From the IMG/VR virus record IMGVR_UViG_3300025626_002025: 64,000 bases of DNA. One strand, 5' to 3'. Positions 1-15,131 of the stretch are shown piece by piece; position 1 is the stretch's first letter, and each line of letters begins with the position of its first letter. The notes beneath the pieces were generated by a model. It was not told the DNA's origin. It made no database searches and worked only from the letters and a program-made list of their open reading frames with translations. The translations under genes were made by a program, and so were the position numbers. Origin of the DNA: a virus.

Positions 1-1627
1 CTTCTGATGTTCTTGAACGTTTTTTCGTTCTTTCTTTATCACCAAGTGGGTCTCTACCAAGTGGATGTTTATCTTTTCCATATGTTCCACCTTCTCTTGG
101 TCTACCACCTTTATCTTTTATTTCGTTCTTGATATCTTCAAGTTGTTCTTCAATATCACTTGGTTCATCATCTTCCATTGCAGGGTCACTACCTTCATCT
201 TCAATAGAACGGAATCTATATCTATCTTTTAAATCATCTAACATCGATACTCTTTGTTCATCTTGTTCACCACCACTTAGTTTGAATATATTTTCATATA
301 CCCAATCCTTAGATAACATATTTAATCCTTGAATATCTTGAGCTAATCTAATTTTCTCACTCCATAAGTTTACTTTTTCTTGTTCGTAAATTGTAGATGG
401 ATTAACTAATGATAATTCAAAATTAGTCATTTCAGAATCTGTAATTCCTTGTGCATATAAATGAACAATTGCAATTTTAGATAATTCTGAAACTACTGTT
501 CTTTGTATTCTTTCAATTGTTCTTGCAAATCTAACATCTTCTGCTGCTAATGTTGCTTTACCATTTACATTTTCTTCATATCCTAAATATGCTCTAGGAA
601 CTTTTAATGCTGCAAATAATTTGTTTTTTAGATAATCAATATCATCGATGGTTGCATACTCTAATCCTGCAAGATTATCAATAGATGTTCCACTATCACC
701 ACCACGAACAGGAAGATAGAAATCTTCTGTTAGGTTTTGCATATTATACTTTAAGTTATAATCACCAGTATTTCTATCAATAAATGGAACTTTCTTCATT
801 TTATTGATAATTCTTTGCATATAGTTATCTACCTCTGTTGGAGGAATGTTACCAATATCAATTTTGAAAACTCTCTTTTCAGGTGCTCTCATGATTCGGT
901 GAATCAACATTGCATCTTCCATTAGAGATAATTGTTTCCACAATCTTCTAGCATTTTCAATCATTGATTTTCCATATGGTAACCAGTTTGTATCTGCTAA
1001 TAATCTAAAGTGAGCAACTTCAAAGTTTTCGTATTGTTCTTTTCCATTTGGGTCTTCAGTAATTTTAAACTTTACTGAGTTTGGATTCGATGGGTCTGTT
1101 CTTTCTAATCTTTCTGTGTTGTAAACTGAATGAGGTGTTACGTTAACAATACCTTTACCTTCAGCGATTTCCATACCTAAGAAGAAATCTCCATACTTAC
1201 ACATATTTCTTACCCAAGGCCATAAGTTGAATTCAATATTAAGAACATCATAAAATAAGTTATTTAAAATATCTTGTACTTGTTGATTATCAGAGTGAAC
1301 CAATAAAGTATCACCAAATTCATTCTTTAGTGTTGATTCATCTGCATATATATCAAGAGCTGATGCTAATATTGGGTCATTATCCATAGCATCATAATCT
1401 CTAAAAACTTCTCTACGAACTTGTTGGTATGCCATTGACTGAGCACCACCTGCTTGTTCGAAAAAACTTTTTTGTAGTTTCGTGTACCTATCTCTTAAAG
1501 AAGATAGATTTGTTTGTTGTCTTTCATCGGTATCGAAAACTTTTCTCTTACCATCTTTATCGACAGTAACGACTGCCTGAGCTCTGAAGAGTTTAGTTAA
1601 CCTACCAAAAAATGAAGTATCTGCCAT
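1..1627 (-). CDS. gp20: Portal vertex protein (T4 gp20-like), 3' end runs off the window
   Basis: Not in the ORF track because it is open at the edge. Manual translation from ATG at 1627: MADTSFFGRL...YDAMDNDPILASALDIYADE...LMEDAMLIHRIMRAPEKRVFKIDIGNIP...EDFYLPVRGGDSGTSIDNL...LFAALKVP. These are hallmark gp20 motifs, and the gene lies close to terL. Confidence 0.95.
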   Translation of the reverse strand, partial: MADTSFFGRLTKLFRAQAVVTVDKDGKRKVFDTDERQQTNLSSLRDRYTKLQKSFFEQAGGAQSMAYQQVRREVFRDYDAMDNDPILASALDIYADESTLKNEFGDTLLVHSDNQQVQDILNNLFYDVLNIEFNLWPWVRNMCKYGDFFLGMEIAEGKGIVNVTPHSVYNTERLERTDPSNPNSVKFKITEDPNGKEQYENFEVAHFRLLADTNWLPYGKSMIENARRLWKQLSLMEDAMLIHRIMRAPEKRVFKIDIGNIPPTEVDNYMQRIINKMKKVPFIDRNTGDYNLKYNMQNLTEDFYLPVRGGDSGTSIDNLAGLEYATIDDIDYLKNKLFAALKVPRAYLGYEENVNGKATLAAEDVRFARTIERIQRTVVSELSKIAIVHLYAQGITDSEMTNFELSLVNPSTIYEQEKVNLWSEKIRLAQDIQGLNMLSKDWVYENIFKLSGGEQDEQRVSMLDDLKDRYRFRSIEDEGSDPAMEDDEPSDIEEQLEDIKNEIKDKGGRPREGGTYGKDKHPLGRDPLGDKERTKKRSRTSE

Positions 1628-2089: not shown

Positions 2090-3682
2090 TTATTTAATTA
2101 ACCAAGTTAAATCCTCATGGTTATCACCAACTCGCATTTTCCAAGGGTCATCATCCATTGAAGTATTACCACCAAAACCCATTCCACCAATATCTAATTG
2201 ATGTGCACCGATTCCACCCAATGCTTGTTTTGTTAAATCAATTCCCTCTTGTCTTAATCTAAGTGCAGTATCTCTAACCCACAATCCGATTGATAATGAC
2301 ATTGTTAAATCATCATTATAACCTCGCATTGCTTCTGCTCTATTACCATTCCATATAAATGTAAACATTTCATCTATTGTTCTTTGTGAACGAATTGTTA
2401 CAGATTTTTCTCTAACATATTGTTCTAACTTAGAAATGATTAAAGGTCTTGTTTTAGATGTTGTACTAAAACCAGCAGTTAAACCTCTATCTTGTGCTCT
2501 GTATTTATTTGATAATTGATTTTCAGTATCTACATACTTTAAATCTTTACTCATATAAAAAGTATTTTGATAACCTCTATCAATTACTTGTTGTAAAACT
2601 GCCCAACCAATATTTGCATTTTCAACTACAAGTAAGGCGTTATTATATTCGGTTGCCAATGCAACTAAAAAGTTTCCAAAATCTTTTGTATCTAATTTAC
2701 CTTTGTATTCTGCAACTTGAGAAGATTCTTCTATATCGATAACATGACACGCTGAGTAATCCGTTGAATCTCCACGAGCAACATCCGCTACAACCATATA
2801 AGATTTGGTATAGTTTGGATATTCCCATTTCCATAGGTTTCCATCGAACCCAGTCTTTTCCATTGGTTCTTGTACAAATGATTCTTTATAAAACATTAAA
2901 AGTTGTGGGTCTATTACTGTATCACCAGAACTAACAAAATCACAATCACATTCTTGTGCTGCTCCCTTTACCCCAAGTAGTACCTCTTGCTCATCTCTCC
3001 AATCTTGATTTCTTTCAGGATGTACACTCCAATGTAGTCGTATTGGATTAAATGTATTTGTTTCATCTTCTGCTCCCACCCAAGTTTTGTGGAAAAAGTT
3101 TCCAACACCATTTGGAGTAGAAAGTATAATTGCATTACCACCCGTTGATAAGGTAGATTGTGATGATACCCATATATCTTCAATCTTATCAATAAATGCT
3201 GCCTCATCAAATACTAATAAGGATAATGCCTCAGAACGACCAGCATCTCCTGCTGCAGAAGTTGCTTTTATCTGAGAACCATTTGAGTATCTTAAGGATA
3301 GTTTGTTATCCTCTACCGTTGTTTGTTTTAACCACGATGGTAAATACTGATTCATCACACGAACCTTCGTTACAAGGTTCTTAGCAACTTCTTGTTTAGT
3401 TGCAATTACCAATACATTAAAATCTTGATTGAATAACATCTTCCAAAGTGAAAATCCCGCAGTTAAGGTTGAGATACCTGTTTGTCGAGATTTAAGAATG
3501 ATGTTGTATCTGTGTTCTGCGAATTGGTCTAATGTTCTTTCTTGAAATTGATATAAATGAAAAGGTATCTTACCACGAACAGGATGTTGAATCATACAAT
3601 ACTTTTTCATAAAGTAGATTGGGTCTCCAGCACATTTCTGATACTCAAGTTTTATTATTTCTTTTAAAGATTGTTTAGCCAT
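2090..3682 (-). CDS. terL: Terminase large subunit (T4 gp17-like)
   Basis: Walker A KSRQTGIST, Walker B LLVFDEAAF, coupling motif STPNG, RNase-H nuclease motifs ADVARG...DYS and NDDL. Confidence 0.97.
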   Translation of the reverse strand: MAKQSLKEIIKLEYQKCAGDPIYFMKKYCMIQHPVRGKIPFHLYQFQERTLDQFAEHRYNIILKSRQTGISTLTAGFSLWKMLFNQDFNVLVIATKQEVAKNLVTKVRVMNQYLPSWLKQTTVEDNKLSLRYSNGSQIKATSAAGDAGRSEALSLLVFDEAAFIDKIEDIWVSSQSTLSTGGNAIILSTPNGVGNFFHKTWVGAEDETNTFNPIRLHWSVHPERNQDWRDEQEVLLGVKGAAQECDCDFVSSGDTVIDPQLLMFYKESFVQEPMEKTGFDGNLWKWEYPNYTKSYMVVADVARGDSTDYSACHVIDIEESSQVAEYKGKLDTKDFGNFLVALATEYNNALLVVENANIGWAVLQQVIDRGYQNTFYMSKDLKYVDTENQLSNKYRAQDRGLTAGFSTTSKTRPLIISKLEQYVREKSVTIRSQRTIDEMFTFIWNGNRAEAMRGYNDDLTMSLSIGLWVRDTALRLRQEGIDLTKQALGGIGAHQLDIGGMGFGGNTSMDDDPWKMRVGDNHEDLTWLIK

Positions 3683-3683
3683 T

Positions 3684-4373
3684 CTATTTTTTTCCTAGTT
3701 TCCAATACATAGAACCACCAACGAATGGTTTATACTCACCAAGTTGATTTGATATACCAACATTTAAACCATAAATTTTCATTTTCTTAGTTTTAAACAA
3801 GATGTTACCACTAATATTGTTAAATCCATTTGTTTGGTCAATTCCTGCACCAAATCCATAATAGAATTCATTCTTTGGTAATTCTTTTACTATTGTAGTA
3901 TTATAAACGGTTGGAATCTTAAAATACCAATCTATTTCTCTTGATTCAATTCTGTTTTGTGAAATGATATCAGTTAAAATACCGAATCCTAAATCTCCAC
4001 TTGGTTTGTTACCCAATGAATCGGTAACTACATCAGGAAAATCATATGCTAAACTTAATGTATCCTTAACTGTTATTTTTGCAAAGTAATCTTTTATAAT
4101 AGCAAGTGAATCTACATCTACTGGTATCTCTACTTCCTTAATTACTTCTTTTGTAATGTACTTTGGTACATACTTTGTTACCTTAACTTCTTTTTCTACA
4201 TATATGGTATCAGTTTTTGATTCTAACAACTCATATTGTTCTCCATCTACATCTACAATGGTTTTATCACCAGTATCATCTCCACATCCTCGTAAAAATA
4301 AAATAATTCCAAATAAAAGAAGGATTAATATTTCTCTCCACCTTTTAATTAATAAACTAAATATAATGCTCAT
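3684..4373 (-). CDS. Predicted lipoprotein/membrane protein with C-terminal amphipathic beta-strands (possible lysis/spanin-like)
   Basis: N-terminal hydrophobic stretch ending in a lipobox-like LRGC; C-terminus has ~4 Gly/aromatic strands ending YWKLGKK. Confidence 0.6.
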   Translation of the reverse strand: MSIIFSLLIKRWREILILLLFGIILFLRGCGDDTGDKTIVDVDGEQYELLESKTDTIYVEKEVKVTKYVPKYITKEVIKEVEIPVDVDSLAIIKDYFAKITVKDTLSLAYDFPDVVTDSLGNKPSGDLGFGILTDIISQNRIESREIDWYFKIPTVYNTTIVKELPKNEFYYGFGAGIDQTNGFNNISGNILFKTKKMKIYGLNVGISNQLGEYKPFVGGSMYWKLGKK

Positions 4374-5073: not shown

Positions 5074-8000
5074 TTAGAAGAAAATACCGAGTATCTGATT
5101 TACGGATGCGAATGTACCTGTAAGTTTAAAAGTATTTCCTTTATATAAGAATACAATACCTTCATTTGGTACAATTTTCTTAGAACCACCAATAGATTGT
5201 AATCTACCAAGTTCCAATTTAAGTTTTTCTATCTTTTTTGGGTCACCTGATTTCCTAACATCTTTAATTGTCTTATCAATTCGTTTTTTCATATCACGAA
5301 CTGCTGAATCAGCGTTAACTGTTAGTGCAGATGAGGTAAACTCTAACACTTCTGCACCCAAACCTAAGAATATTTGTTCAAACTTCATTAAGTTCTTCTT
5401 ACCAATCTTCTTTTGGTCTTCTTTATCTGTTTTTTTAGCCCACTCTAATGTTTTTTCATCACTAAAGTTCTTTTTATCTAATCTAAATCCTTTATCCATG
5501 AACGCCCATCTCTTAACTAACCCCATTTTGGTTTTGTTATCAAGTGATGTAGGTGAATTCTTATCAACCCATTGTGACCACCACCCTTGGTGATAATCAG
5601 CAACACCATCAGTATCCTTTAAACTAAATTCTTTTTGTAATTTAGATATCTGTGATGAGTATTTACTACGTTTCTTAGATAAATCTTGTGATTTTGGTAA
5701 TTTTACAATAGGAGGTCCTTGAATAGTGTAATTATCTTGTACATCTTTGTTAACTTGTTTAATCATACCAGCTAATACTCTTGCTGATTCACCATTCTCT
5801 CCGATTGCAACACCATCCATGTTGAATTCCATAGTACCATGGAACACAAGTAACGCTTGACCATAAGGAATAACGTTTACTGATGTTGGGTATATCACTT
5901 CAAGGTTCATAAAACACGCACCTTGTTTAAATACCTTATCTCTTTGTTTATCCGATAACGATTTAATAGCATTTGAAAGGTCTTTCATTGCATAATTGTA
6001 AGCATCACTCAATCCACCTCTACCTTGGAACTTATCTGATACACCTTTGATATCTAAAGCATTCTCACCTCTGTTCTTTAGGTGGCCTTTGTTCCTCGCT
6101 GCTACTAACCTACCATCTCTCCATGAAATAGCTAATGCTTGACCATCTGTTTTCTCTCGTGTGAACTCAAGTGTACCTTCGAGTGCACGATTTACGATAT
6201 CTTTAAGTTGTCCAAAGGTTAAATTGATATCAGTATCAAATGGATGAGACATATGTCCATACGCACCACCTTCTTGGAGTAAGTTAGATTCGTTTATGTT
6301 TTCTTTGATTAGTTGTTGTGGTGTTTTAGTGTTTGGTAAAAACATTTCAACTAACTTATTATCGATATCACTTATTATCTGTTCTATACTATCCATATTT
6401 TTACTTTCTTTATTTTCACCCAAACCACCTTTATCGTGTTTAGAGAATTTACCTAATTTATCAAATGCTCTGAATGATTTTAATTTATCTTGCTTTGCAG
6501 GTCTCATATCAGATAGTTGTTTGTATCTCATGTGGTTTTTAACAATGTAAAATACATTTGCAGCATTACCATCAACTGATTCTATAAACTTTTTATACTT
6601 CTTTACTAATGAAGCAGATACTTTTTCATGTCCAAAGTGTGTGATGTGTCCTTTCTTTGGGTGAATACCCGCAGTTTCATCTTTTCCTATATCGTGAAAC
6701 ATTGCTGCTATTGCAATATCAATATCATCCTCTTTGATTGAACGATTCACAACCATAATAGTATGTTTAAGAACATTACCCTCTGGGTGTTTATCTACTC
6801 TTTGACCAAAGTTCTTTAGATTGTAAACTCTCTTTTGTAAATCAGAAGGCATCTTTTTGAATAATGATTTGAAATCTTTTATTCCTAATTCTTTTAATCC
6901 TTCTTTAACTGGTTTTGCTTTTAGAAATGCTTGGTCTACAACATCTTCATTCTTTTTTTCGAATTTTTCAACTTCCTTTGCTCGTAATGCTGGTAAGAAT
7001 CTGAATTTAGCTCTTTTTCTAACTCTACCTTTTTTTCTCACCACATTCTTATGAATTACCTGAGTTTGTGCAATCGATAAATCTGCTTTCTTAATACCAG
7101 GATATAATTCTTCCATGAACTCAGCGTAAACTTGTCTGTATGCCATCTTGTAAGCAATCTTCTTAAGTTTAGAAAGAGGTTTTCTTCTTTTCATCGTTCT
7201 TGCTCTTCTTCTTGCGATTTCCTTACTCTTTCCTGCCATTGCTGCTTTTCTTCTTAATCTATCAGCAGGTCTCATCTTACCTCGTTCATCCAAATCTTCG
7301 GATTCTATTGTGTATTTTGCATCAGATGATTTAAAATCATTTTTTCTCATTATGGTTTTAGCGATTAGTTTATTCGCTTGTTTCATAAATGGAATATTAA
7401 GGTTTGTTCTATTATCCTTTACTACAATTTGATTATATTGATTAAGAAATTTTACAAAATCTTTTTTCTTTTTTCCTAATCTTTTAAAGAATCCAATTAA
7501 TTCGGCTTGTGATATTTCCTTTCCGTTTCTTGGGTCATTTAACCTATCGAAGAAATGTTTTCCTGTAAGAACTGTATCTACCGGATTTAATTGTTTATCT
7601 GCAAACTTATCAATCTTTTGTAAGTCAGACATTGGCATCTCATTTAAGAAATTTTCTCTTTCTTTATTTTTTATCCACAATCCAATTTCTGCACCTTTGA
7701 TATCAGAGGGTACATCGTTTCCACCAACTGATAATTTAAAACTTACAAACTTCTTCATATCCTTTCCAATCGATTTACCAAAATCTACTATTTGGTTATC
7801 AGAAAGTGAAGTTTTTTGTTGTAGTTTTTTATAAACACCAACTTCTTCTGGTTTAAAATATTGTAATGATACTAAAAATACAATATCATTCTTTTCAGTA
7901 TTTGTATATGATAACTTATTTAATAGTTTTCCTAATAACGCTGGAGAATTCTTTTTTAGAAGTACTGATAGGAATACAATATAATCAGTAGTTTTAATAT

Positions 8001-11000
8001 ATGGTTTATTTATTTTAAGATTTGGTAAAATTTGAGAAGTGAATCCAATTTTATCACACAACTCCATATACTTCTTTGTATCCTTTGATGTTTTAAGTGA
8101 TTTTACAAATTCATCTCTAATTCTTTCAGCTGGAAGTGATTTTAGTGATGGGTCTTTTTGTAACGCATCTAATAACTCCTTATCTAAACTACCACCCATT
8201 CTTGATTGAAATCTTAAAGCTCTTAATTTTCTTAATGGGTCTTCATCAAATCTCTCAACAGCATTTCCAACTGTTCTAATGTTTTTCTTTTTAAGGTCTG
8301 CAATTCCACCAACTAAATCAACTATTTCTTTTCTTTCAATATCATAGAATAAAGCATTTATAGTTAAATCTCTTCGTTTTACATCTCCTTCAATATCTGT
8401 ATATTCTACTGAATCAGGTCTTCTACCCTTTCCAATATCCTTTCTAAATGTTGCAACTTCATGTCCACCAACGATTACAATTCCCAATCCCATTCCAGTA
8501 CCCACATCTTGTGATGTTTTGAAACCACCATCTTTACCAATCTTCATTGTTTCTTCTGGTTTAGCATCAGTTGCCAAATCAAAATCTTTTGGGGATTTAC
8601 CTAAAATAGCATCTCTAACTGCCCCACCTACTATATAAAGCTTTTTACCGTTTTTTTTAAATTGCTTTTGTAGTTTAACAATATCCGATGGTACTTTTAG
8701 TTTAAAATTTTTAGATTCATTTAAACCCATTTTTTCTTTCCATGAATCAAATGCATCGAAATCATATTCTTGTTTCTGAGAATCCCATCCACATGAATGA
8801 CATAAATATTTTTCACTATCATCAGATTCAATATCCCATGAGTGATTGCATTTTTCACATTTAATGTTTGTTCCTGCGATTTCGTTAACAGATTCTTCTT
8901 CTGATTGAGTAAACTTAATAAGAGCAGTTGATAGTATTTCATTAGATACTTCAACGTTTTCTAATTCTTTTATTATCAATTCAGAAAATTTATTTAAATC
9001 CGCCTCTAGTTCTTGGTCTTCATCTGCAAATATAGCAGCTCTACCTACTCCTTTTAATATTGTTTCAATAGCAACATGAGGTACAAGTTCTGCCATTGTC
9101 AATCCAGCAAGTTTTGCAACTCCAGTAACCGTTCCGGCAACTCCACCACTGGCAGCAAATGCTCCTGTGATTAAAATACTCTTTCCTACTAACTTTAGAG
9201 CTTTCTTTTGGTCATCCTCTAACTCTTTATATTTTTTACCACTACCAAGTTCTTTTAATGCACCACCTGCTTTTTTAAATTCATGATACTCGTGTTTAAG
9301 ACCATCTTTAATTGCCTTTCCAGCACCTTTAGTTTTATCTTTTAGTTTATCAATAAAACTTCGTTTTACTGCATCTGGATTTTTTACTACATCACTAAAG
9401 TATTTCTTTTCTTCGGATTTTAACTTTGGAAAATATTCTTTAATTTTCTTTTTAGTATTATCTCTTCTCTTTTTTATGATATCACTAGGAGAAACAACAT
9501 TAGTTGGTATATCTATCTTAATATCAGTTGCAAATCCATCCTTATCAGTATTTGCATCTTTTTTTGCAGGGTCATTATCTGGTAAACTATCTCTAAAAGA
9601 ATCCCCATCCTTTCCCTTAAAAATTCCTTTACTATCTTTTTTATCAGAATCATCAGAGTCCGTATTATCTGATGATTTTTCATGAGTACCTGATTTTATA
9701 GCACCATCTCTCGCATCCTTTGTTTTGAATACAGATGTTTTTCCTGATTTCTTGTTTGTAGCAGTGAACGTTTCATCATCTTCAAGTATAGAATATAATC
9801 CTTCTTGTACAATTCTAAAGGTAACCACTTTTCTACCATTGATTGTTGGCATTCCATGTTCATCTTTACCGATTGTTTTAACAACTGTTTTCTTATTCTT
9901 AAATCTACCAGTCATAATGGTATCTCCAACTTTAATTGGTAGTACTATATTTTCATTTAAAGATGCTTCGTATTCTTCTTGTGATTTCTTATCACCTTTT
10001 TGAGAATCTAATGATGCATCTTTGATATCCTTATTGGTATCTAATCCTTTTACTAATTCATACCCAACCATTGATGCTTTACGAGTTACGTGCTTAAACC
10101 ATTTAGAATAAGCATCACTTGAATAGATATCAACTTGGTTAGCGGCAGTTTGTGTACCAAGTACACCTGCTGGAAATGGGGTTACTGCTTTAACAGGTCC
10201 ATTTGGATATGTTGGATGGTCATAAAAATCTTCAATATCTCTAGTAGTAATCATATCAATTACCTCATAACCGATTCGTGTTGCTCTATCTACATTTATT
10301 TTAGAGAACACATCATAGTTAGGAAAAAAGAAATTTGGTCCATCATCTGCTTGACCACTTCCCATCTTAGAACTTTCGTTTAACAACCACTCCTCAATCA
10401 TCTCTTTAGAAATTTCAATTCCCTCATCGAGTTTATCAGTAATCATACTAAAGATAGTTGCATTAAACTTTCCGTAGGCTCTTTTCTTAAAGAAGTTCTT
10501 TTTCTGTTCATCAGAACCAACTGATAAACCATTTCTTACTTCCGTACCACTTACAGAATTACCAGACATTGGAGCTGCGTAAACATATCCTCTATCTCTA
10601 TATCCTTCTGATGGGTCTCCTTTGTATGGTTGAAAGTATTTACCACCTAATCGGTTTTTATCTTTCTCACCAACAACAGTTACAAATGCAGTTGTTTCTT
10701 CATCAAACTTTTTAAGAATTTCTGTGGGTTTGTATGGATTTTTAACTCTATGTATTTTGGATTTTGGAATTCCAAACATAGTAGTCATAATTTTTACCTT
10801 TTCTTTGAAGTTAAAAGGTGATTTAGGTAATTGTACCTTATCAGATGTACCTACATACACATTATCTTTACCAAACTTTTTTACAAGGTGCTGGTAAGTT
10901 CCATAGTGTCCTTTATGCATAGGTTGAAACCTACCCACATAGATAACTACTGTTTTTTTAATAGGATTTTCATCCCCCATTATACTCTCTACGAGAAATT

Positions 11001-11016
11001 TGGAAAGTTCATTCAT
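5074..11016 (-). CDS. 1980-aa multidomain protein: HxGH nucleotidyltransferase + Zn ribbon + CCA-adding-type nucleotidyltransferase + HD phosphohydrolase + RNA-ligase-like domain
   Basis: GRFQPMHKGH...SGTEVR (N-terminal); CEKC...CHSC; GGAVRD/DFDLATD/RRDLTINAL/EDPLR/ERIRDEF; HPEG..HT/FHDIGK/GHE/HM; EKTDG/AARN/NLEVIY/LVFH/EGIVF/FKLTG (C-terminal). Confidence 0.88.
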   Translation of the reverse strand: MNELSKFLVESIMGDENPIKKTVVIYVGRFQPMHKGHYGTYQHLVKKFGKDNVYVGTSDKVQLPKSPFNFKEKVKIMTTMFGIPKSKIHRVKNPYKPTEILKKFDEETTAFVTVVGEKDKNRLGGKYFQPYKGDPSEGYRDRGYVYAAPMSGNSVSGTEVRNGLSVGSDEQKKNFFKKRAYGKFNATIFSMITDKLDEGIEISKEMIEEWLLNESSKMGSGQADDGPNFFFPNYDVFSKINVDRATRIGYEVIDMITTRDIEDFYDHPTYPNGPVKAVTPFPAGVLGTQTAANQVDIYSSDAYSKWFKHVTRKASMVGYELVKGLDTNKDIKDASLDSQKGDKKSQEEYEASLNENIVLPIKVGDTIMTGRFKNKKTVVKTIGKDEHGMPTINGRKVVTFRIVQEGLYSILEDDETFTATNKKSGKTSVFKTKDARDGAIKSGTHEKSSDNTDSDDSDKKDSKGIFKGKDGDSFRDSLPDNDPAKKDANTDKDGFATDIKIDIPTNVVSPSDIIKKRRDNTKKKIKEYFPKLKSEEKKYFSDVVKNPDAVKRSFIDKLKDKTKGAGKAIKDGLKHEYHEFKKAGGALKELGSGKKYKELEDDQKKALKLVGKSILITGAFAASGGVAGTVTGVAKLAGLTMAELVPHVAIETILKGVGRAAIFADEDQELEADLNKFSELIIKELENVEVSNEILSTALIKFTQSEEESVNEIAGTNIKCEKCNHSWDIESDDSEKYLCHSCGWDSQKQEYDFDAFDSWKEKMGLNESKNFKLKVPSDIVKLQKQFKKNGKKLYIVGGAVRDAILGKSPKDFDLATDAKPEETMKIGKDGGFKTSQDVGTGMGLGIVIVGGHEVATFRKDIGKGRRPDSVEYTDIEGDVKRRDLTINALFYDIERKEIVDLVGGIADLKKKNIRTVGNAVERFDEDPLRKLRALRFQSRMGGSLDKELLDALQKDPSLKSLPAERIRDEFVKSLKTSKDTKKYMELCDKIGFTSQILPNLKINKPYIKTTDYIVFLSVLLKKNSPALLGKLLNKLSYTNTEKNDIVFLVSLQYFKPEEVGVYKKLQQKTSLSDNQIVDFGKSIGKDMKKFVSFKLSVGGNDVPSDIKGAEIGLWIKNKERENFLNEMPMSDLQKIDKFADKQLNPVDTVLTGKHFFDRLNDPRNGKEISQAELIGFFKRLGKKKKDFVKFLNQYNQIVVKDNRTNLNIPFMKQANKLIAKTIMRKNDFKSSDAKYTIESEDLDERGKMRPADRLRRKAAMAGKSKEIARRRARTMKRRKPLSKLKKIAYKMAYRQVYAEFMEELYPGIKKADLSIAQTQVIHKNVVRKKGRVRKRAKFRFLPALRAKEVEKFEKKNEDVVDQAFLKAKPVKEGLKELGIKDFKSLFKKMPSDLQKRVYNLKNFGQRVDKHPEGNVLKHTIMVVNRSIKEDDIDIAIAAMFHDIGKDETAGIHPKKGHITHFGHEKVSASLVKKYKKFIESVDGNAANVFYIVKNHMRYKQLSDMRPAKQDKLKSFRAFDKLGKFSKHDKGGLGENKESKNMDSIEQIISDIDNKLVEMFLPNTKTPQQLIKENINESNLLQEGGAYGHMSHPFDTDINLTFGQLKDIVNRALEGTLEFTREKTDGQALAISWRDGRLVAARNKGHLKNRGENALDIKGVSDKFQGRGGLSDAYNYAMKDLSNAIKSLSDKQRDKVFKQGACFMNLEVIYPTSVNVIPYGQALLVFHGTMEFNMDGVAIGENGESARVLAGMIKQVNKDVQDNYTIQGPPIVKLPKSQDLSKKRSKYSSQISKLQKEFSLKDTDGVADYHQGWWSQWVDKNSPTSLDNKTKMGLVKRWAFMDKGFRLDKKNFSDEKTLEWAKKTDKEDQKKIGKKNLMKFEQIFLGLGAEVLEFTSSALTVNADSAVRDMKKRIDKTIKDVRKSGDPKKIEKLKLELGRLQSIGGSKKIVPNEGIVFLYKGNTFKLTGTFASVNQILGIFF

Positions 11017-11205: not shown

Positions 11206-11754
11206 TTAATTTTTATAATACAATTCAGGATACTCTACTAATATATGTATTCCACCCTGAGATAATGCTCTTTCATATGCTGGTAAAATCTTTTCAGCAG
11301 TATCTAATTTTTCGATAGTACAATTCGTAACCATTTGTTTAAATGCATCTGTATAATCTGCCTTATGTTGATGACCTGGGTCTAATGGTTTATCTGAACC
11401 CTTACCAACTCTTACAATTACGTTTGGTTTCCATTCACCATCAGACATCGCTTCCAATTTATCTAAATGATTTATTAATTGATTAACTGCAAGAATAACA
11501 AAATCCCATCTTGGATAAAATGTAACAACTCGGTGACCGGTCATTGCCAATCCCATTGTCATTCCCATTTGGGTTTCTTCCATTACTGGAGTTTCTATCA
11601 TTCTTTCTTTTGGTAAACCTTCAATTGTTTTACTCATTGGGTTACCATAATAAACTATCTGTTGTCCGATGAATATTGTTTTTTCATCTTCCATTGTAAG
11701 TTTCATTGCTTCCGTTAACGCATCTAAATACGGTGTATATTCTGGACTACTCAT
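11206..11754 (-). CDS. ThDP-dependent enzyme, E1-beta/transketolase pyrimidine-binding domain only
   Basis: IGQ...ETPVMEETQMGMTMGLAMTG, NQLINH, GHQH motifs; the usual C-terminal domain is missing (182 aa). Confidence 0.88.
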   Translation of the reverse strand: MSSPEYTPYLDALTEAMKLTMEDEKTIFIGQQIVYYGNPMSKTIEGLPKERMIETPVMEETQMGMTMGLAMTGHRVVTFYPRWDFVILAVNQLINHLDKLEAMSDGEWKPNVIVRVGKGSDKPLDPGHQHKADYTDAFKQMVTNCTIEKLDTAEKILPAYERALSQGGIHILVEYPELYYKN

Positions 11755-12721
11755 TACTCATTGTTTTTTTATAATGTTCATATGTTTTTCTAATACCTTC
11801 TTCGAATCCGAGTTTTGGCAACAATCTGTGATGTGCTTGTTTACCTGTATTCATTTTTCTTTTAGGTTCTCCATTGGGTTTACTTGTATCCCAATTGATT
11901 TTAATATCTTTACCACTAACCTTACATACCGTTTCAATCATTTCTTTAATTGTTATCTCAACACCACTTCCGATATTTACAATCTCACAATGTAATCTTT
12001 GTTCAGTAGCACTTAAACACGCTTCAGCAACATCTTCGGCATATACATAATCTCGAATTGGTGTACCATCTCCCCATGCTTCAATTTCACCATCCGATTC
12101 AAATACTTTTTTAATTGTTGCAGGTATTGCCATTGCATTTTCACCAAAGTTATCATATTCTCCAAAAATATTAGAAGGTCTCAAAATAGTCCAATTTATA
12201 AAACCATATTGTCTTTTATACGCCTCAAGTATTAATTCCGGAATTCTCTTACTCCATGCTGGATACCAATCGTGTTTTGATGGTAGTGTACTCCAAACCG
12301 TATCTTCTACAAATTCTTCAGCTGATGCATAAACACCTACCGATGAAAGAAAATTTATATACACACTATGGTGTTGACAATTTTTTATTAAGTTTATGTT
12401 TGCAGTTATAGATGGAACTAGAAAATCAACAGGATTAGATTCAGCTGTTTTTGGTGTTCCTTTTATTCCAAAGCAATTTATAACATCGTTTAAATTGTAA
12501 ATTTCAAATAAAGAACTTACTTTCCAATAATCAGTTAAATCTATATTATGAAATATAAAACTATCACCATATTGGGTACAATCATATGTTGGTTCTTTTA
12601 TATCAACACCAACAACCAAGTGATTCTCAGAAGCAGCTTCTATTAATTTTTTTACAACATGATATCCTACTAACCCACTACATCCAGTAACAAGTGTTGT
12701 ATGTACTATTTCTTTTTTCAT
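11747..12721 (-). CDS. NAD(P)-dependent sugar epimerase/reductase (GDP-fucose-synthase-like extended SDR)
   Basis: TGCSGLVG Rossmann motif, WGDGTPIRDYVY, WDTSKPNG; the canonical YxxxK is altered (YPAWSK). Confidence 0.85.
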   Translation of the reverse strand: MKKEIVHTTLVTGCSGLVGYHVVKKLIEAASENHLVVGVDIKEPTYDCTQYGDSFIFHNIDLTDYWKVSSLFEIYNLNDVINCFGIKGTPKTAESNPVDFLVPSITANINLIKNCQHHSVYINFLSSVGVYASAEEFVEDTVWSTLPSKHDWYPAWSKRIPELILEAYKRQYGFINWTILRPSNIFGEYDNFGENAMAIPATIKKVFESDGEIEAWGDGTPIRDYVYAEDVAEACLSATEQRLHCEIVNIGSGVEITIKEMIETVCKVSGKDIKINWDTSKPNGEPKRKMNTGKQAHHRLLPKLGFEEGIRKTYEHYKKTMSNE

Positions 12722-12733
12722 TTTTTAATAATT

Positions 12734-13372
12734 TTAAAACACTACCCACTTACCTGTTCCGTAATGTGGATATTTTGATTCATACTTATAATATATTACA
12801 TCTTCTGGCAATTCTCTCTGAATACCATTCCAAGTATCTAATGTTGGGGTGTTTGTACTTACACCATTATCTTCTACAATAAAATGAAGAGGTAAATCAT
12901 AATTTCTTGCATACTTGTGAACTTCGTAAAAGATTCCACTTTCAAATGACATATCTCCTATAAAAACCCAAACCTTATCATTACTACCTTTAAGTTTAAG
13001 TGATTTTGCAACTCCCAATGCAATTGGTAAAGTACCAGTTACAATTGCAGATGCATAAAAATTAGATTCTTTATCTACGATAGTAATTGATTTACCATCA
13101 AGTATTTTTTGTTTTAGTTTTGATTCTTCTACACCATGTAAAAGTGCATGATAATGAGACCTCCAAGTTGAGAATACCCAATCTGTTGGAGATATTTTTT
13201 TGAACACTTCTATAAGTTGTTCTTCATTTCCATTTGATAGATGAATGGGTCCTGTAATTTCCCCACCTTCCCAATGTGAAATTATATCATCTTCAAATTG
13301 AATGAGTTCTTCTTTTGTGTAATTACCCGATTCCCATCTATCTTCGTGGTAATCTAAATTTTTAATTATCAT
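12734..13372 (-). CDS. ThDP-dependent enzyme, E1-alpha-like subunit (short)
   Basis: GPIHLSNGNE, STWRSHYH, ThDP-binding GD...EDN motif (IGDMSFESG...VEDNGVS). Confidence 0.9.
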   Translation of the reverse strand: MIIKNLDYHEDRWESGNYTKEELIQFEDDIISHWEGGEITGPIHLSNGNEEQLIEVFKKISPTDWVFSTWRSHYHALLHGVEESKLKQKILDGKSITIVDKESNFYASAIVTGTLPIALGVAKSLKLKGSNDKVWVFIGDMSFESGIFYEVHKYARNYDLPLHFIVEDNGVSTNTPTLDTWNGIQRELPEDVIYYKYESKYPHYGTGKWVVF

Positions 13373-14538
13373 ATAAAAATATTTTTAATATAGTCTAAAT
13401 CGTTTTTTTTATTAATAATTTCACAGACTATTTTGTTATTGTTTATAAATCTATCCTTAAACATTACATAAAAATCTTTAATAACATCAGGATTATTTTT
13501 TATTAGTTCTAGTTGTTTAAATATAAGTTTCATTCGAATCAAAGGGTCTTCTTCGGAATCATATGAATGGTCTATAATATCATCAAACATATCAAATCCA
13601 TATATTTTTCTTAATTCACTTAAGTGATTATGTGGTGCTACAAATATTGGCAACTGATAATAATAAAATGGTTTTAATGATTTTTCTGTAATGTGAATAA
13701 CATCCTCTGAAAAATCTGTTTCAGTTACAATATTAACATAACTATTTTTAAATGTAGTAACATTTATAATAGGAGAATCAATTTCATCAAATGTAAATTT
13801 TTCATTTTCATAAAAACTTAACTTTGAACCATTTTGTATTATTGAGTTATATGAATCAGTAAATGTTTTATATTCTGTTTCAATACTTTTTAGCAATCCA
13901 TCGTTATCATGTGATACACTAAAATCTACACACGAATAATCAACATCTTTTAATATATTATTTTCTTTTAATAAAACAATAGTTGCCAATCTATGACCAA
14001 CCATTTTATTATTATGACACATAAACAAAAAGTTTCTATCATCATCAGATGGTTCAATAAAATTTGTTTGTAAAAGATTTGAGTGTTCTATTGATTGATA
14101 AAATGGAAAATAAAAATTAATTTTACTTTTCATATCACTCAAATATTTTTTAATTTTATTATTGTTTACAAATAAATAAATTTTACTTGTATCAATATTA
14201 TTATTTAAACAATATTCATTAAAAGAAAATACTTCAGATTCCAAAAAACATTCATTTAAATGAAATATAAAAACCTTTAACCCTTTTTTAATATACTTCT
14301 GTAATATATCTGAAAATATGTTTTGGTTATCAACTGTAAGATTATTTAAATTAACTATTGGATAAATTACTTCATTAAAATCATCAACATTATTTTCCGA
14401 AACAAATTCTATATCGATTCCTATTCTTTCAAATATAGTAGATACTACTTCATTTCTATGTCCCAATTCATTTTGATTAAAAAAATATTGATGGGGTAAG
14501 AAACTTGATAATATACTATCCAATACTTTTACTTTCAT
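13369..14538 (-). CDS. Putative glycosyltransferase (GT10-like C-terminal motif), paralog 1
   Basis: IVTET...HITEKSLKPF...PIF...GFDMFDDIIDHSYD, shared with three paralogs in this cluster. Confidence 0.6.
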   Translation of the reverse strand: MKVKVLDSILSSFLPHQYFFNQNELGHRNEVVSTIFERIGIDIEFVSENNVDDFNEVIYPIVNLNNLTVDNQNIFSDILQKYIKKGLKVFIFHLNECFLESEVFSFNEYCLNNNIDTSKIYLFVNNNKIKKYLSDMKSKINFYFPFYQSIEHSNLLQTNFIEPSDDDRNFLFMCHNNKMVGHRLATIVLLKENNILKDVDYSCVDFSVSHDNDGLLKSIETEYKTFTDSYNSIIQNGSKLSFYENEKFTFDEIDSPIINVTTFKNSYVNIVTETDFSEDVIHITEKSLKPFYYYQLPIFVAPHNHLSELRKIYGFDMFDDIIDHSYDSEEDPLIRMKLIFKQLELIKNNPDVIKDFYVMFKDRFINNNKIVCEIINKKNDLDYIKNIFI

Positions 14539-15131
14539 GGAGTATCTCTTTTAGAAAGAAGTGGGTTTTGGCATGGCCATTCTATATTGAATTTAGGGTC
14601 ATTCCAAAATATTGTACCTTGGTCTTCTACATCATTATATACACCAGGATATGCAAGTTTATAATAAAATACAGAATTATCTTCCATTACATAATGTCCA
14701 TTTGCAAAACCAGGTGGTATTAATACTTGTGTTTGTGTCTGAGGTGATATTATATAAGTTTCCCAACTACCATATTGTGGATTGGTTACAATATTTCCAC
14801 CCCTCACATCAAGTACAACTAAATATATTTTTCCTGAAATACAACTTATTAATTTCCAAGTTTTATCATCGTAATGCATTCCTCGTAAAACACCTTCTTG
14901 TGATTTAGAATATCTATCGTGTTTAAAATCAACTCCATTTTCTCTCTCACCAACAGGTATCATTCTATCATAATAATCTTGATGATATAGTGTTGCTATT
15001 TCCCCCCTAAGTTCATGGTAAACAGCCGGTTGGATTATTTTTACTCCTCCAGTTAAAACCTTCGAGTTGTATATATGAATATCATTCCATGCTCTTTCTT
15101 TGTAGTAAATACTTCTATTAATCGATGCCAT
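14535..15131 (-). CDS. rmlC: dTDP-4-dehydrorhamnose 3,5-epimerase family (cupin)
   Basis: GVLRGMHY, KLISCISGKIY.VVLDVR, IPPGFANG, WNDP...IEWP...LSKRD. Confidence 0.92.
   Translation of the reverse strand: MASINRSIYYKERAWNDIHIYNSKVLTGGVKIIQPAVYHELRGEIATLYHQDYYDRMIPVGERENGVDFKHDRYSKSQEGVLRGMHYDDKTWKLISCISGKIYLVVLDVRGGNIVTNPQYGSWETYIISPQTQTQVLIPPGFANGHYVMEDNSVFYYKLAYPGVYNDVEDQGTIFWNDPKFNIEWPCQNPLLSKRDTP

What the first reader, a model, noticed from the sequence alone, without database searches (positions are those of the whole stretch)
5074..11016. Candidate new system: a single-gene tRNA heal-seal-rebuild polyprotein
Seen in one ORF: (i) class II CCA-adding-type nucleotidyltransferase (~7640-8715; GGAVRD, DFD, RRD, EDPLR, ERIRDEF, without the poly(A) polymerase GRRF signature); (ii) HD domain like that of multifunctional CCA enzymes (~6420-6900; HPEG...HT, HDIGK, GHE); (iii) covalent-nucleotidyltransferase/RNA-ligase-like domain (~5074-6270; motif I EKTDG, III NLEVIY, IIIa LVFH, IV EGIVF, V FKLTG); (iv) HxGH nucleotidyltransferase (~10420-10960). 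Known: the E. coli CCA HD domain has 2',3'-cyclic phosphodiesterase/phosphatase activity; T4 Pnk plus Rnl1 repair PrrC-cut tRNA; several defences cleave tRNA anticodons or 3' ends. Inference: end-healing, ligation and CCA re-synthesis are combined into one anti-defence RNA-repair kit. I do not know this architecture as a described system.
Basis: partly seen in the sequence, partly recalled or inferred. Interest (0 to 1): 0.92.

Follow-up and report, generated by a model that had tools for sequence, protein, structure and literature searches.

The report
Phage cargo polyprotein of RNA-repair enzymes
A marine T4-like jumbo phage encodes a real 1980-residue protein that chains an NMN-adenylyltransferase-like enzyme, a complete tRNA CCA-adding enzyme, an HD phosphohydrolase and an unmodelled RNA-ligase-like enzyme, and its leader and seams suggest the head protease cuts it into pieces that are packed in the capsid and injected with the DNA.

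Summary
All four domain calls hold at the stated coordinates. The ORF 5074-11016(-) is open. Its exact sequence lies on two independent contigs, and a 1983-aa near-twin lies on 12, so it is not a chimera.

- **N-terminus:** a NadM/NMNAT-like HIGH nucleotidyltransferase.
- **aa 768-1126:** a complete class II CCA-adding enzyme.
- **aa ~1400-1530:** an HD domain of the kind attached to tRNA nucleotidyltransferases.
- **aa 1583-1980:** a covalent nucleotidyltransferase with no Pfam model. Its best structural matches are RNA ligases, and K/R/E/EG/K are invariant.

The architecture is not unique. More than 1000 long relatives share the same N- and C-terminal domains around a variable middle (CCA, HD, PNK-like kinase, GNAT and others).

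The protein starts with a T4-type 10-residue capsid-targeting-like leader. All six internal (L/I/V)NE sites fall on module seams. Close relatives carry a gp21-type S77 prohead protease a few genes downstream. Stand-alone ligase homologues carry leaders that end in LxE directly before the invariant GG.

Best reading (about 0.55): a capsid-loaded, protease-processed cargo polyprotein whose products mend tRNA ends. Cleavage, packaging and all enzyme activities are inferred, not shown.

This scan has reached the same reading on relatives in other genomes.

The parts
5074..11016 (-). Whole ORF, 1980 aa (P0001), stop codon included
   Evidence: The identical protein lies on two independent contigs.
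10987..11016 (-). aa 1-10, MNELSKFLVE: a leader like the T4 capsid-targeting sequence (hydrophobic at positions 4 and 7, L-x-E at 8-10)
   Evidence: Sequence. Among 197 relatives that start with this domain: L4 in 137, F/Y/I7 in 156, L8 in 132, E10 in 122. The T4 CTS rule and the gp21 motif L/I-X-E are from PMC9026906.
10375..10986 (-). aa 11-214: NadM/NMNAT-like HIGH (HxGH) nucleotidyltransferase, ending at LNE(212-214)
   Evidence: Pfam CTP_transf_like, E 5.6e-6. PDB 1f9a NMNAT, E 1.3e-4. G-R-F-Q-P, the second His, and T and R of SGTxxR are at least 90% conserved in 32 relatives.
9952..10374 (-). aa 215-355: module B, unknown fold, often follows the NTase in relatives; ends at LNE(353-355)
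   Evidence: BLAST map. No Pfam, PDB or Atlas lead.
9781..9951 (-). aa 356-412: small, widely reused module of about 50 aa, followed by VQE/ILE sites
   Evidence: HSP clusters q348-355 to q401-423. The module sits at varied positions in relatives.
8881..9780 (-). aa 413-712: a 34-aa tag shared with a head-module protein, then a D/K-rich low-complexity linker, then a Gly/Ala-rich hydrophobic segment (aa ~600-655); ends at VNE(710-712)
   Evidence: P0001 aa 407-447 is 63% identical to the N-terminus of the 451-aa protein encoded next to the S77 protease (E 6e-11). Hydropathy.
8716..8880 (-). aa 713-767: CxxC...CxxC zinc ribbon, ending at LNE(765-767)
   Evidence: CEKC(720) and CHSC(739). Weak HypA/Zn-ribbon Pfam hits. 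The flanking linkers have pLDDT below 50.
7639..8715 (-). aa 768-1126: complete class II CCA-adding-type tRNA nucleotidyltransferase (head, neck, body, tail), ending at LNE(1124-1126)
   Evidence: This domain has zero [LIVM]xE sites against 4.7 expected (P 0.003).
7291..7638 (-). aa 1127-1242: module M, the commonest middle cassette in relatives; function unknown
   Evidence: Many HSPs span q1124-1239. phrog_14518, unknown function. The AF2 model is low confidence and there is no PDB or Atlas lead.
6892..7290 (-). aa 1243-1375: strongly basic helical segment, net charge +28
   Evidence: Composition. No family hit.
6289..6891 (-). aa 1376-1576: HD phosphohydrolase, ending at INE(1574-1576)
   Evidence: Pfam HD, E 6.8e-9. 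HDIG 2.9e-5. PDB 3wfp HD region, E 4.5e-4.
6271..6288 (-). aa 1577-1582, SNLLQE: second L-x-E site directly before the invariant GG of the ligase-like domain
   Evidence: 102 of 129 relatives have [LIVMF]xE immediately before GG. Stand-alone homologues have 7-37-aa leaders ending there, or start at MGG.
5077..6270 (-). aa 1583-1980: RNA-ligase-like covalent nucleotidyltransferase. Motif I K1622, motif IV E1952-G1953, motif V K1964. A ~175-aa helical insert lies between motifs IIIa and IV.
2090..3682 (-). Context: large terminase, two genes downstream
   Evidence: phrog_2, E 2e-45.
2..1627 (-). Context: T4-type portal protein, which runs off the window
   Evidence: phrog_213, E 8e-63. Portal_T4 in the colinear relative.

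Best explanation
The gene encodes a late, capsid-targeted cargo polyprotein of a T4-like-headed marine jumbo phage.

Proposed mechanism:
1. A 10-residue T4-type leader takes the chain into the prohead core.
2. The phage's gp21-type (S77) prohead protease cuts after Glu at L/I/V-x-E seams, here mostly (L/I/V)-N-E.
3. This releases separate products: an NMNAT-like nucleotidyltransferase, a CCA-adding enzyme, an HD phosphohydrolase, an RNA-ligase-like enzyme whose mature end is GGAYGHM..., and several small or basic modules of unknown role.
4. The products stay in the head and enter the next host with the DNA.
5. There the HD enzyme would clear 2',3'-cyclic or 3'-phosphate ends, the ligase-like enzyme would reseal broken tRNA, and the CCA enzyme would rebuild trimmed 3' ends. 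The NMNAT-like enzyme may rebuild NAD+ or serve the ligase.

Shown here: domain identities, conserved catalytic residues, family-wide modularity, gene context, and the placement and conservation of sites.

Inferred: cleavage, packaging, injection, every enzymatic activity and the substrates.
For: Domains.

Modularity: the Mel-JY01 639-aa protein equals aa 20-207 joined to aa 1561-1979. There are 1764 representatives, nearly all with the ligase-like domain at the C-terminus of proteins of 400-1930 aa. Middle cassettes vary.

RNA-repair theme: P0034 has an AAA_33 kinase, HD, CCA enzyme and ligase-like domain in one chain.

Protease and head context: the colinear relative (85.6% nucleotide identity over 7.1 kb) has the gene order polyprotein, two small genes, TerL, one small gene, Portal_T4, four genes, Peptidase_S77..., Gp23 major capsid protein, gp13. 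Mel-JY01 and LR756500 also carry S77.

Cleavage sites:
- All six internal [LIV]NE sites (212, 353, 710, 765, 1124, 1574) sit on module seams defined independently by BLAST breakpoints.
- Sites 710 and 765 lie in linkers with pLDDT below 50. Site 1124 lies at the end of the last CCA helix. Sites 1574 and 1580 lie in the disordered first 26 residues of the ligase model.
- [LIVM]xE is depleted inside the four catalytic domains (4 against 11.3 expected, P 0.006) and enriched outside them (25 against 15.6, P 0.006).
- Two other giant proteins in the window have one [LIVM]NE each.
- Head-core proteins of the relative carry repeated ESVNE-type sites, and the protease itself has VNE near its N-terminus.

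Leaders: MNELSKFLVE fits the T4 CTS rule. Stand-alone ligase homologues carry leaders ending LxE|GG, for example a 10-aa MRNIGPYLIE|GG. An internal 34-aa tag is shared with the N-terminus of a head-module protein.

Published proteomics: a homologue of the N-terminal domain (S-SZBM1_140; 30% identity, E 3e-7) was detected in purified virions of a T4-like cyanophage (PMC9146016). A 'cytidylyltransferase' was also virion-associated in S-CREM2 (PMC10665884; homology not checked here).
Against: - No proteomic or biochemical data exist for this protein or its close relatives.
- The S77 protease gene lies outside the window and is inferred from a relative at 85.6% identity.
- L/I/V-x-E is short and common. 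The LxE before GG is also conserved in proteins where it could simply be part of the fold.
- The (L/I/V)NE preference is not seen in distant relatives.
- Many counted relatives are close kin, so the conservation counts are not independent.
- The ligase assignment rests on a predicted structure with middling Z (8-9) plus motifs. Profile comparison with T4 Rnl1 is not significant (E 0.11).
- No 5' kinase is present, so HEPN-type breaks (5'-OH) could not be sealed by this protein alone.
- GNAT, SET, SprT and Zn-finger cassettes in relatives show the family is not devoted to RNA repair.
Confidence: 0.55

Rival explanations
1. An uncleaved, cytoplasmic multi-enzyme. The 1980-aa chain works as one scaffolded tRNA repair and maturation machine during late infection. 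The seam motifs would be only linker composition.
For: One open frame is conserved as a whole across many contigs. The catalytic domains are intact. Fused RNA-repair enzymes are known, such as Trl1 and bacterial Pnkp (established knowledge).
Against: The T4-type 10-aa leader. Seam sites lie in disordered linkers. LxE is depleted inside the domains. Stand-alone homologues have cleavable-looking leaders. The gene sits at the head-gene block next to TerL, portal and S77. Unrelated cassettes (GNAT and others) in relatives are hard to fit into a single machine.
Confidence: 0.2
2. Packaged or not, the constant NMNAT-like plus ligase-like pair does something other than tRNA repair. Options are NAD+/nucleotide-signal metabolism against NAD-depleting or cyclic-nucleotide defences, adenylylation of a protein or DNA end, or a morphogenetic role like the tail-fibre attachment function of T4 gp63 (Rnl1). 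CCA and HD would then be independent add-ons.
For: The pair is conserved without any RNA-end-healing partner in the ~640-aa forms. The N-terminal domain is closest to NMN adenylyltransferases. T4 rnlA is annotated as both an RNA ligase and a tail-fibre attachment catalyst. The gene lies in the structural block. No 5' kinase is present here.
Against: The top structural neighbours are RNA ligases rather than DNA ligases or capping enzymes (Z 8-9 against 5-7). The middle cassettes recurrently include CCA, HD and PNK-type kinase. The full set of nucleotidyl-transfer motifs is invariant.
Confidence: 0.2
3. An assembly chimera or a read-through of several adjacent genes.
For: The ORF is unusually long and the modules look like separate genes.
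Against: The identical 1980-aa product lies on two contigs from different sources, with near-identical 1983- and 1980-aa forms on 13 more. Dozens of related full-length forms lie on contigs up to 275 kb. There are no stops in the frame.
Confidence: 0.01

Closest known systems
T4 internal head proteins (IPI-III, Alt) with a capsid-targeting sequence, processed by the gp21 prohead protease
   Same: A 10-residue N-terminal leader with hydrophobic residues at positions 4 and 7 and L-x-E at 8-10. An S77 (gp21-family) protease, Portal_T4 and a Gp23 capsid protein in the colinear relative. A late-gene position beside the head genes. Cargo enzymes meant for the next host, as with Alt (PMC9026906).
   Different: T4 cargo proteins are single proteins that lose only their terminal propeptides. 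Here up to about ten modules are chained, with internal sites at every seam. The cargo is RNA- and nucleotide-handling enzymes rather than an ADP-ribosyltransferase or an anti-restriction protein. Processing is not shown.
Polyvalent proteins of phages and conjugative elements (Iyer et al. 2017, PMC5512222)
   Same: A very long protein that joins disparate enzymatic domains, encoded next to portal and terminase genes, with a variable domain make-up between relatives. Such proteins are predicted to be injected with the DNA.
   Different: None of the anchoring or typical domains of that survey (MuF, portal fusion, MPTase and others) was found in this protein. The paper has no occurrence of CCA or cytidylyltransferase, and states that RNA ligases were not seen with its 2H domains. 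Release here would depend on the head protease rather than on a built-in peptidase.
T4 Pnkp + Rnl1 (gp63) tRNA heal-and-seal pathway against the PrrC anticodon nuclease
   Same: A phage-encoded end-healing phosphoesterase candidate (HD) plus a lysine-nucleotidyl ligase-like enzyme. A sibling (P0034) adds a PNK-type kinase. The fold neighbours include T4 Rnl1 (Z 8.2).
   Different: This protein has no kinase. HD replaces the HAD phosphatase. The ligase-like domain is not an Rnl1 family member. The T4 enzymes are early cytoplasmic proteins, not head cargo.
Multifunctional bacterial CCA-adding enzyme (E. coli Cca: NTase + HD)
   Same: A class II NTase with motifs A-E, and an HD domain most similar to those attached to tRNA nucleotidyltransferases.
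   Different: In Cca the HD domain directly follows the NTase. Here about 250 residues (module M and a basic segment) and a putative cleavage site separate them, and relatives carry either domain without the other.
ATP-dependent RNA ligase families Rnl1, Rnl2/REL1, Rnl3 and Rnl5
   Same: The predicted nucleotidyltransferase fold, and the ordered motifs I (KxDG), Ia (R), III (E), IIIa, IV (EG) and V (K).
   Different: No sequence-profile link to any of them. A ~175-residue helical domain is inserted between motifs IIIa and IV instead of a C- or N-terminal accessory domain. The chain ends 15 residues after motif V. A conserved GGxxGHxxHPFD element precedes motif I.

Membership tests
Covalent nucleotidyltransferase superfamily (ATP-dependent ligases and capping enzymes) | Motif I KxDG with the nucleotidyl-accepting lysine | tested here: met
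   EKTDG at aa 1621-1625. K, D and G are invariant in 38 relatives. hhalign puts this lysine opposite K99 of T4 Rnl1 (the alignment is not significant).
Covalent nucleotidyltransferase superfamily (ATP-dependent ligases and capping enzymes) | Motifs Ia, III, IIIa, IV and V in order | tested here: met
   R82, E147, H167 (FHG), E393-G394 and K405 (domain numbering) are invariant or at least 90% conserved.
Covalent nucleotidyltransferase superfamily (ATP-dependent ligases and capping enzymes) | Nucleotidyltransferase fold | tested here: met
   AF2 pLDDT 91. The nine best VIA matches are ligases, Z 7.3-8.9, with 175-211 aligned residues spanning model residues ~10-421. The Foldseek top hits are all RNA ligases, but E is about 1e-2. 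This is a predicted structure and the scores are middling.
Covalent nucleotidyltransferase superfamily (ATP-dependent ligases and capping enzymes) | Self-adenylylation and strand sealing | not testable with these tools
   Needs biochemistry.
T4 Rnl1 family | Sequence-family membership and a C-terminal all-helical tRNA-specificity domain after motif V | tested here: not met
   No Pfam hit. hhalign E 0.11. The chain ends 15 aa after motif V, and the helical domain is inserted between motifs IIIa and IV.
Class II CCA-adding enzyme | Head-domain motifs A-E, including the EDxxR nucleotide template | tested here: met
   GGAVRD, DFD, RRD, EDPLRKLRALRF and ERIRDE. PolyA_pol, E 7.7e-31.
Class II CCA-adding enzyme | Full head-neck-body-tail architecture | tested here: met
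   Model aa 768-1128 aligns with 6qy6 over 370 columns, target TM 0.70, E 1e-17. E. coli poly(A) polymerase scores lower (TM 0.52).
Class II CCA-adding enzyme | CCA specificity as opposed to A-adding, CC-adding or poly(A) polymerase | tested here: inconclusive
   The NCBIfam CCA model (6e-50) and PcnB model (3e-49) score alike, and both fall below their cut-offs.
HD phosphohydrolase of the Cca type | H...HD...H...D metal site, and kinship with NTase-attached HD domains | tested here: met
   Pfam HD, E 6.8e-9. HDIG. Best PDB match is the 3wfp HD region, E 4.5e-4. Phosphodiesterase or phosphatase activity is not testable here.
NadM/archaeal-type NMN adenylyltransferase | GRFQPxHxGH and SGTxxR motifs | tested here: met
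   Substrate is not testable. Mel-JY01 has a degenerate first His.
T4-type capsid-targeted internal proteins | A 10-aa leader ending L/I-x-E, with targeting residues at positions 4 and 7 | tested here: met
   MNELSKFLVE. Conserved in relatives. The rule is from PMC9026906.
T4-type capsid-targeted internal proteins | A gp21-family prohead protease in the same genome | tested here: inconclusive
   Peptidase_S77 is present in the colinear relative L003/L004 and in Mel-JY01 and LR756500. The corresponding region of this genome lies outside the window, and the assembly is not held.
T4-type capsid-targeted internal proteins | Presence in virions and cleavage at the leader | not testable with these tools
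   Indirect evidence only: S-SZBM1_140, a homologue of the N-terminal domain, was found in virions (PMC9146016).
Polyvalent proteins (Iyer et al. 2017) | Many disparate domains in one chain, in a virion-gene context | tested here: met
Polyvalent proteins (Iyer et al. 2017) | Characteristic anchoring or processing domains (MuF, portal fusion, MPTase) | tested here: not met
   None found in P0001 by Pfam or PHROGs. SprT-like was seen in 1 of 32 relatives.
Pnkp/Rnl heal-and-seal kit | A 5'-OH polynucleotide kinase | tested here: not met
   No kinase family in P0001. It is present in the sibling P0034 (AAA_33, 2e-19).

The most novel reading that the evidence does not exclude
T4-like marine phages use the capsid-targeting-leader plus head-protease system as a general loading dock. 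They concatenate interchangeable enzyme cassettes between cleavage sites, and so pre-load the capsid with a tRNA-repair and NAD-restoring set that acts at the moment of DNA entry, before any phage gene is expressed. The set includes a CCA-adding enzyme, an HD end-healing enzyme, sometimes a PNK-type kinase, and a new topologically rearranged RNA ligase family. That ligase-like family, with 1764 clusters at 50% identity and no existing model, would be a major undescribed RNA ligase clade.
Probability: 0.4. Interest if true: 0.8.

Novelty: new variant of a known kind. Interest (0 to 1): 0.66.

Why it matters
If the model holds, three things follow.

1. It shows a way for phages to deliver counter-defence enzymes as protein. 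They could answer tRNA-cleaving and perhaps NAD-depleting abortive-infection systems before transcription starts.
2. It turns the T4 capsid-targeting principle, so far known for single small proteins, into a modular polyprotein design. Cassettes bounded by protease sites can be shuffled freely.
3. It defines a large, abundant RNA-ligase-like family that is not in Pfam and has an unusual domain insertion. Such an enzyme could also be useful as a reagent.

Every step can be tested directly with standard virion proteomics and enzyme assays.

Tried and rejected
- **Nucleotide search:** megablast of the ORF against the phage collection found nothing.
- **Own assembly:** it is not held, and the nearest record G001 does not contain the ligase-like domain or Gp23.
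- **Ligase-like domain by sequence:** searches against Pfam and the PDB, by single sequence and by profile, found no ligase. The only profile hit was a weak likeness of the helical insert to ribosomal protein eS6 (E 1.7e-4), which is probably compositional.
- **T4 Rnl1:** hhalign of the family profile against T4 Rnl1 gave the right register but is not significant (E 0.11).
- **S-SZBM1_139:** this virion protein, encoded next to the cyanophage 'cytidylyltransferase', is not a ligase homologue.
- **Modules B (aa 215-355) and M (aa 1127-1242):** no Pfam, PDB or Atlas lead, and the AF2 model of M is low confidence.
- **130-aa ORF:** the ORF between TerL and portal is not related to the small module at aa 356-412.
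- **Chimera:** rejected on independent contigs.
- **Literature:** searches for a description of this architecture, or of Mel-JY01, found none.

Full report
**1. What is there**

The minus-strand ORF 5074-11016 is open under the standard bacterial code and encodes 1980 residues. The window is a phage. All long ORFs lie on one strand, G+C is about 30%, and the genes just downstream are a large terminase and a T4-type portal.

The exact protein is on record from two contigs of different sources (longest 202,973 bp). A 1983-aa form lies on 12 contigs, and another 1980-aa form on a 92,857-bp contig. An assembly chimera is therefore excluded as far as contigs can show. The read-level check could not be run.

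**2.

- **N-terminus.** This is a HIGH-motif nucleotidyltransferase: Pfam CTP_transf_like at E 5.6e-6 on the isolated segment. Its nearest solved relatives are archaeal NMN adenylyltransferases (1f9a, E 1.3e-4). It has GRFQPMHKGH and SGTEVR. Both motifs are conserved in relatives, and the remote phage matches are NadM-type NMNAT/Nudix proteins.
- **aa 768-1126.** This is a complete class II CCA-adding-type enzyme: PolyA_pol at E 7.7e-31 and CCA-adding enzymes 6ibp/1miv at E 4e-33 and 4e-30. The model has pLDDT 85-97 and aligns over the whole length of CCA-adding enzymes (target TM 0.70, E 1e-17). HMMs cannot separate CCA-adding from poly(A) polymerase here. The fold ranks CCA enzymes above E. 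coli PAP.
- **HD domain.** Pfam HD at E 6.8e-9. It is closest to the HD region of a class II tRNA nucleotidyltransferase.
- **aa 1583-1980.** There is no Pfam or PDB sequence match. The confident model (pLDDT 91) has RNA ligases of several families as its best neighbours: REL1 Z 8.9, Naegleria Rnl Z 8.5, T4 Rnl1 Z 8.2, Trl1 Z 8.2, Rnl2 Z 7.8. DNA ligases and capping enzymes score Z 5-7. The lysine motif KxDG and motifs Ia, III, IIIa, IV and V are invariant or nearly so in 38 relatives.
- **Unusual features of the ligase-like domain.** A helical domain of about 175 residues is inserted between motifs IIIa and IV. The chain ends 15 residues after motif V. A conserved GGxxGHxxHPFD element precedes motif I. 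A profile comparison with T4 Rnl1 finds the correct register for motifs I and III but is not significant (E 0.11). I file it in the covalent nucleotidyltransferase superfamily as RNA-ligase-like, but not in any named Rnl family.

**3. The architecture is common and modular**

An exhaustive search found 1764 cluster representatives (50% identity) with the ligase-like domain. It is almost always at the C-terminus of proteins of 400-1930 aa. A length-matched search found more than 1000 long relatives on contigs up to 275 kb, some from Tara ocean samples.

In Microcystis phage Mel-JY01 a 639-aa protein equals aa 20-207 joined directly to aa 1561-1979 of this protein. The NMNAT-like and ligase-like domains are therefore the constant frame, and about 1350 residues are inserted between them here.

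The inserts differ between relatives. They include CCA (sometimes twice), HD, GNAT, DUF5661, a P-loop kinase of the AAA_33/Zeta type, ROS/MucR zinc fingers, SprT, an intein, and the unknown modules B and M. One relative, P0034, has NTase, DUF5661, AAA_33 kinase, HD, CCA enzyme and ligase-like domain in one 1930-aa chain. That is a complete kinase/phosphoesterase/ligase set plus CCA, and it supports an RNA-end-repair theme for part of the family. The protein studied here has no kinase.

**4. Evidence that it is a head-loaded, protease-cut polyprotein**

This idea was also in notes by other first readers of the same genome. I tested it.

- **(a) Protease and head context.**
  - A contig colinear with the window (85.6% nucleotide identity over 7.1 kb) continues past the portal into a T4-type head module. 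That module holds a Peptidase_S77 (gp21-family) prohead protease, core proteins, a Gp23 capsid protein and gp13.
  - Mel-JY01 and the huge phage LR756500, which also carry the family, have S77 too.
  - T4 gp21 cuts after Glu in L/I-X-E. T4 loads internal proteins through a 10-residue leader in which residues 4 and 7 target and residues 8 and 10 direct processing (PMC9026906).
- **(b) Leader.** The protein begins MNELSKFLVE, with L4, F7, L8 and E10. This pattern is conserved in the 197 relatives that start with the NTase.
- **(c) Seam sites.** All six internal (L/I/V)NE sites (212, 353, 710, 765, 1124, 1574) fall on module borders. Those borders were defined independently by where BLAST alignments to relatives start and stop. 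In the models they lie in low-confidence linkers or at domain ends.
- **(d) Site distribution.** [LIVM]xE is depleted inside the four catalytic domains (4 against 11.3 expected, P 0.006; none in the 353-aa CCA core) and enriched outside them (25 against 15.6, P 0.006). Two other giant proteins of the window have one (L/I/V/M)NE each.
- **(e) The site before GG.** 102 of 129 relatives have [LIVMF]xE immediately before the invariant GG of the ligase-like domain. Stand-alone homologues either begin at MGG or carry 7-37-residue leaders that end exactly there, for example a 10-residue MRNIGPYLIE|GG.
- **(f) Shared tag.** Residues 407-447 are 63% identical (E 6e-11) to the N-terminus, leader included, of a 451-aa protein encoded beside the protease. 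Head-core proteins and the protease itself carry the same ESVNE/VNE-type sites.
- **(g) Published proteomics.** A homologue of the N-terminal domain was detected by mass spectrometry in purified virions of the T4-like cyanophage S-SZBM1 (PMC9146016). A 'cytidylyltransferase' was also virion-associated in S-CREM2 (PMC10665884; homology not checked).

None of this shows cleavage or packaging of this protein. The motif is short, many relatives are close kin, and the protease gene of this genome is outside the window.

**5. Most likely mechanism**

The chain is made late and enters the prohead core through its leader. The S77 protease cuts it at the seams. The pieces remain in the head and are injected with the DNA.

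In the new host:
- the HD enzyme would remove 2',3'-cyclic or 3'-phosphates,
- the ligase-like enzyme (mature N-terminus GGAYGHM...) would reseal tRNA,
- the CCA enzyme would rebuild 3' ends,
- the NMNAT-like enzyme may restore NAD+ or act with the ligase,
- the basic segment, the zinc ribbon, the hydrophobic Gly/Ala segment and modules B and M have no assigned role.

I put this at about 0.55. The rivals are an uncleaved cytoplasmic multi-enzyme (0.2), a constant pair with a non-RNA-repair role, including a gp63-like morphogenetic one (0.2), and an artefact (0.01).

**6. Comparison with known systems**

- It works like T4 internal proteins and Alt in loading and processing, but as a multi-cassette polyprotein.
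- It fits the polyvalent-protein concept (PMC5512222), but has none of that survey's anchoring domains. Its domain set is absent from that paper.
- It resembles the T4 Pnkp/Rnl1 pathway in logic, but lacks the kinase, uses HD, and has a ligase outside the named Rnl families.
- Paper searches found no description of the architecture. Public annotations call these proteins only 'tRNA nucleotidyltransferase/poly(A) polymerase' or 'cytidyltransferase-like'.

**7. Verdict**

The finding is a new variant of known kinds (head-cargo or polyvalent proteins, and phage RNA repair), and it contains an unmodelled RNA-ligase-like family.

Follow-up agents of this scan reached the same reading on relatives in other genomes. 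Those are AI notes, not independent evidence.

- the leaders of stand-alone ligase homologues,
- the depletion of cleavage motifs inside the catalytic domains,
- the kinase-bearing sibling P0034,
- the S77 check in three relatives,
- the link to published virion proteomes.

Noticed in passing
L004:13992-14297 (relative colinear with the window, beyond window base 1): A ribosomal protein bS21 homologue (Pfam Ribosomal_S21) sits inside the T4-type head module, between core proteins and the scaffold-like acidic protein.
   Followed up: no
window 36790-43692 (-) and 53132-58744 (-): Two further giant ORFs (2300 and 1870 aa) have no PHROG match at E 1e-5. Unlike the 1980-aa protein, each has only one (L/I/V/M)NE site and no CTS-like leader.
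   Followed up: partly
window 5077-6270 (-), aa ~1775-1885 of the protein: The helical insert of the ligase-like domain gives a weak but repeated profile match to the C-terminal rRNA-binding region of eukaryotic ribosomal protein eS6 (E 1.7e-4 to 1e-3). This may be compositional, or it may hint at RNA binding.
   Followed up: no
window 11206-15131 (-); L003:1402-9827: Directly upstream of the polyprotein lies a block of nucleotide-sugar genes: an epimerase, a dTDP-4-dehydrorhamnose 3,5-epimerase, and in the relative also CMP-sugar transferases, NeuB, a radical SAM enzyme and an aminotransferase.
   Followed up: no
relatives P0004, P0135, P0149, P0151: Module order is not fixed. P0004 carries two CCA modules. 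In P0135, P0149 and P0151 the ligase-like domain comes before an NMNAT-like domain. One relative holds an intein/Hint element.
   Followed up: no
L003:15741-16445 (homologue of window ORF 3684-4373): The small protein between the polyprotein and the terminase starts with a hydrophobic segment followed by Cys, which looks like a lipoprotein signal. The 218-aa ORF before it has no family hit and might be the small terminase.
   Followed up: no
L012:2992-5478 (Synechococcus phage S-SZBM1): The virion-detected 'cytidylyltransferase' (gene 140) is followed by gene 139, a 457-aa protein that was also detected in virions. Gene 139 is not related to the ligase-like domain.
   Followed up: partly
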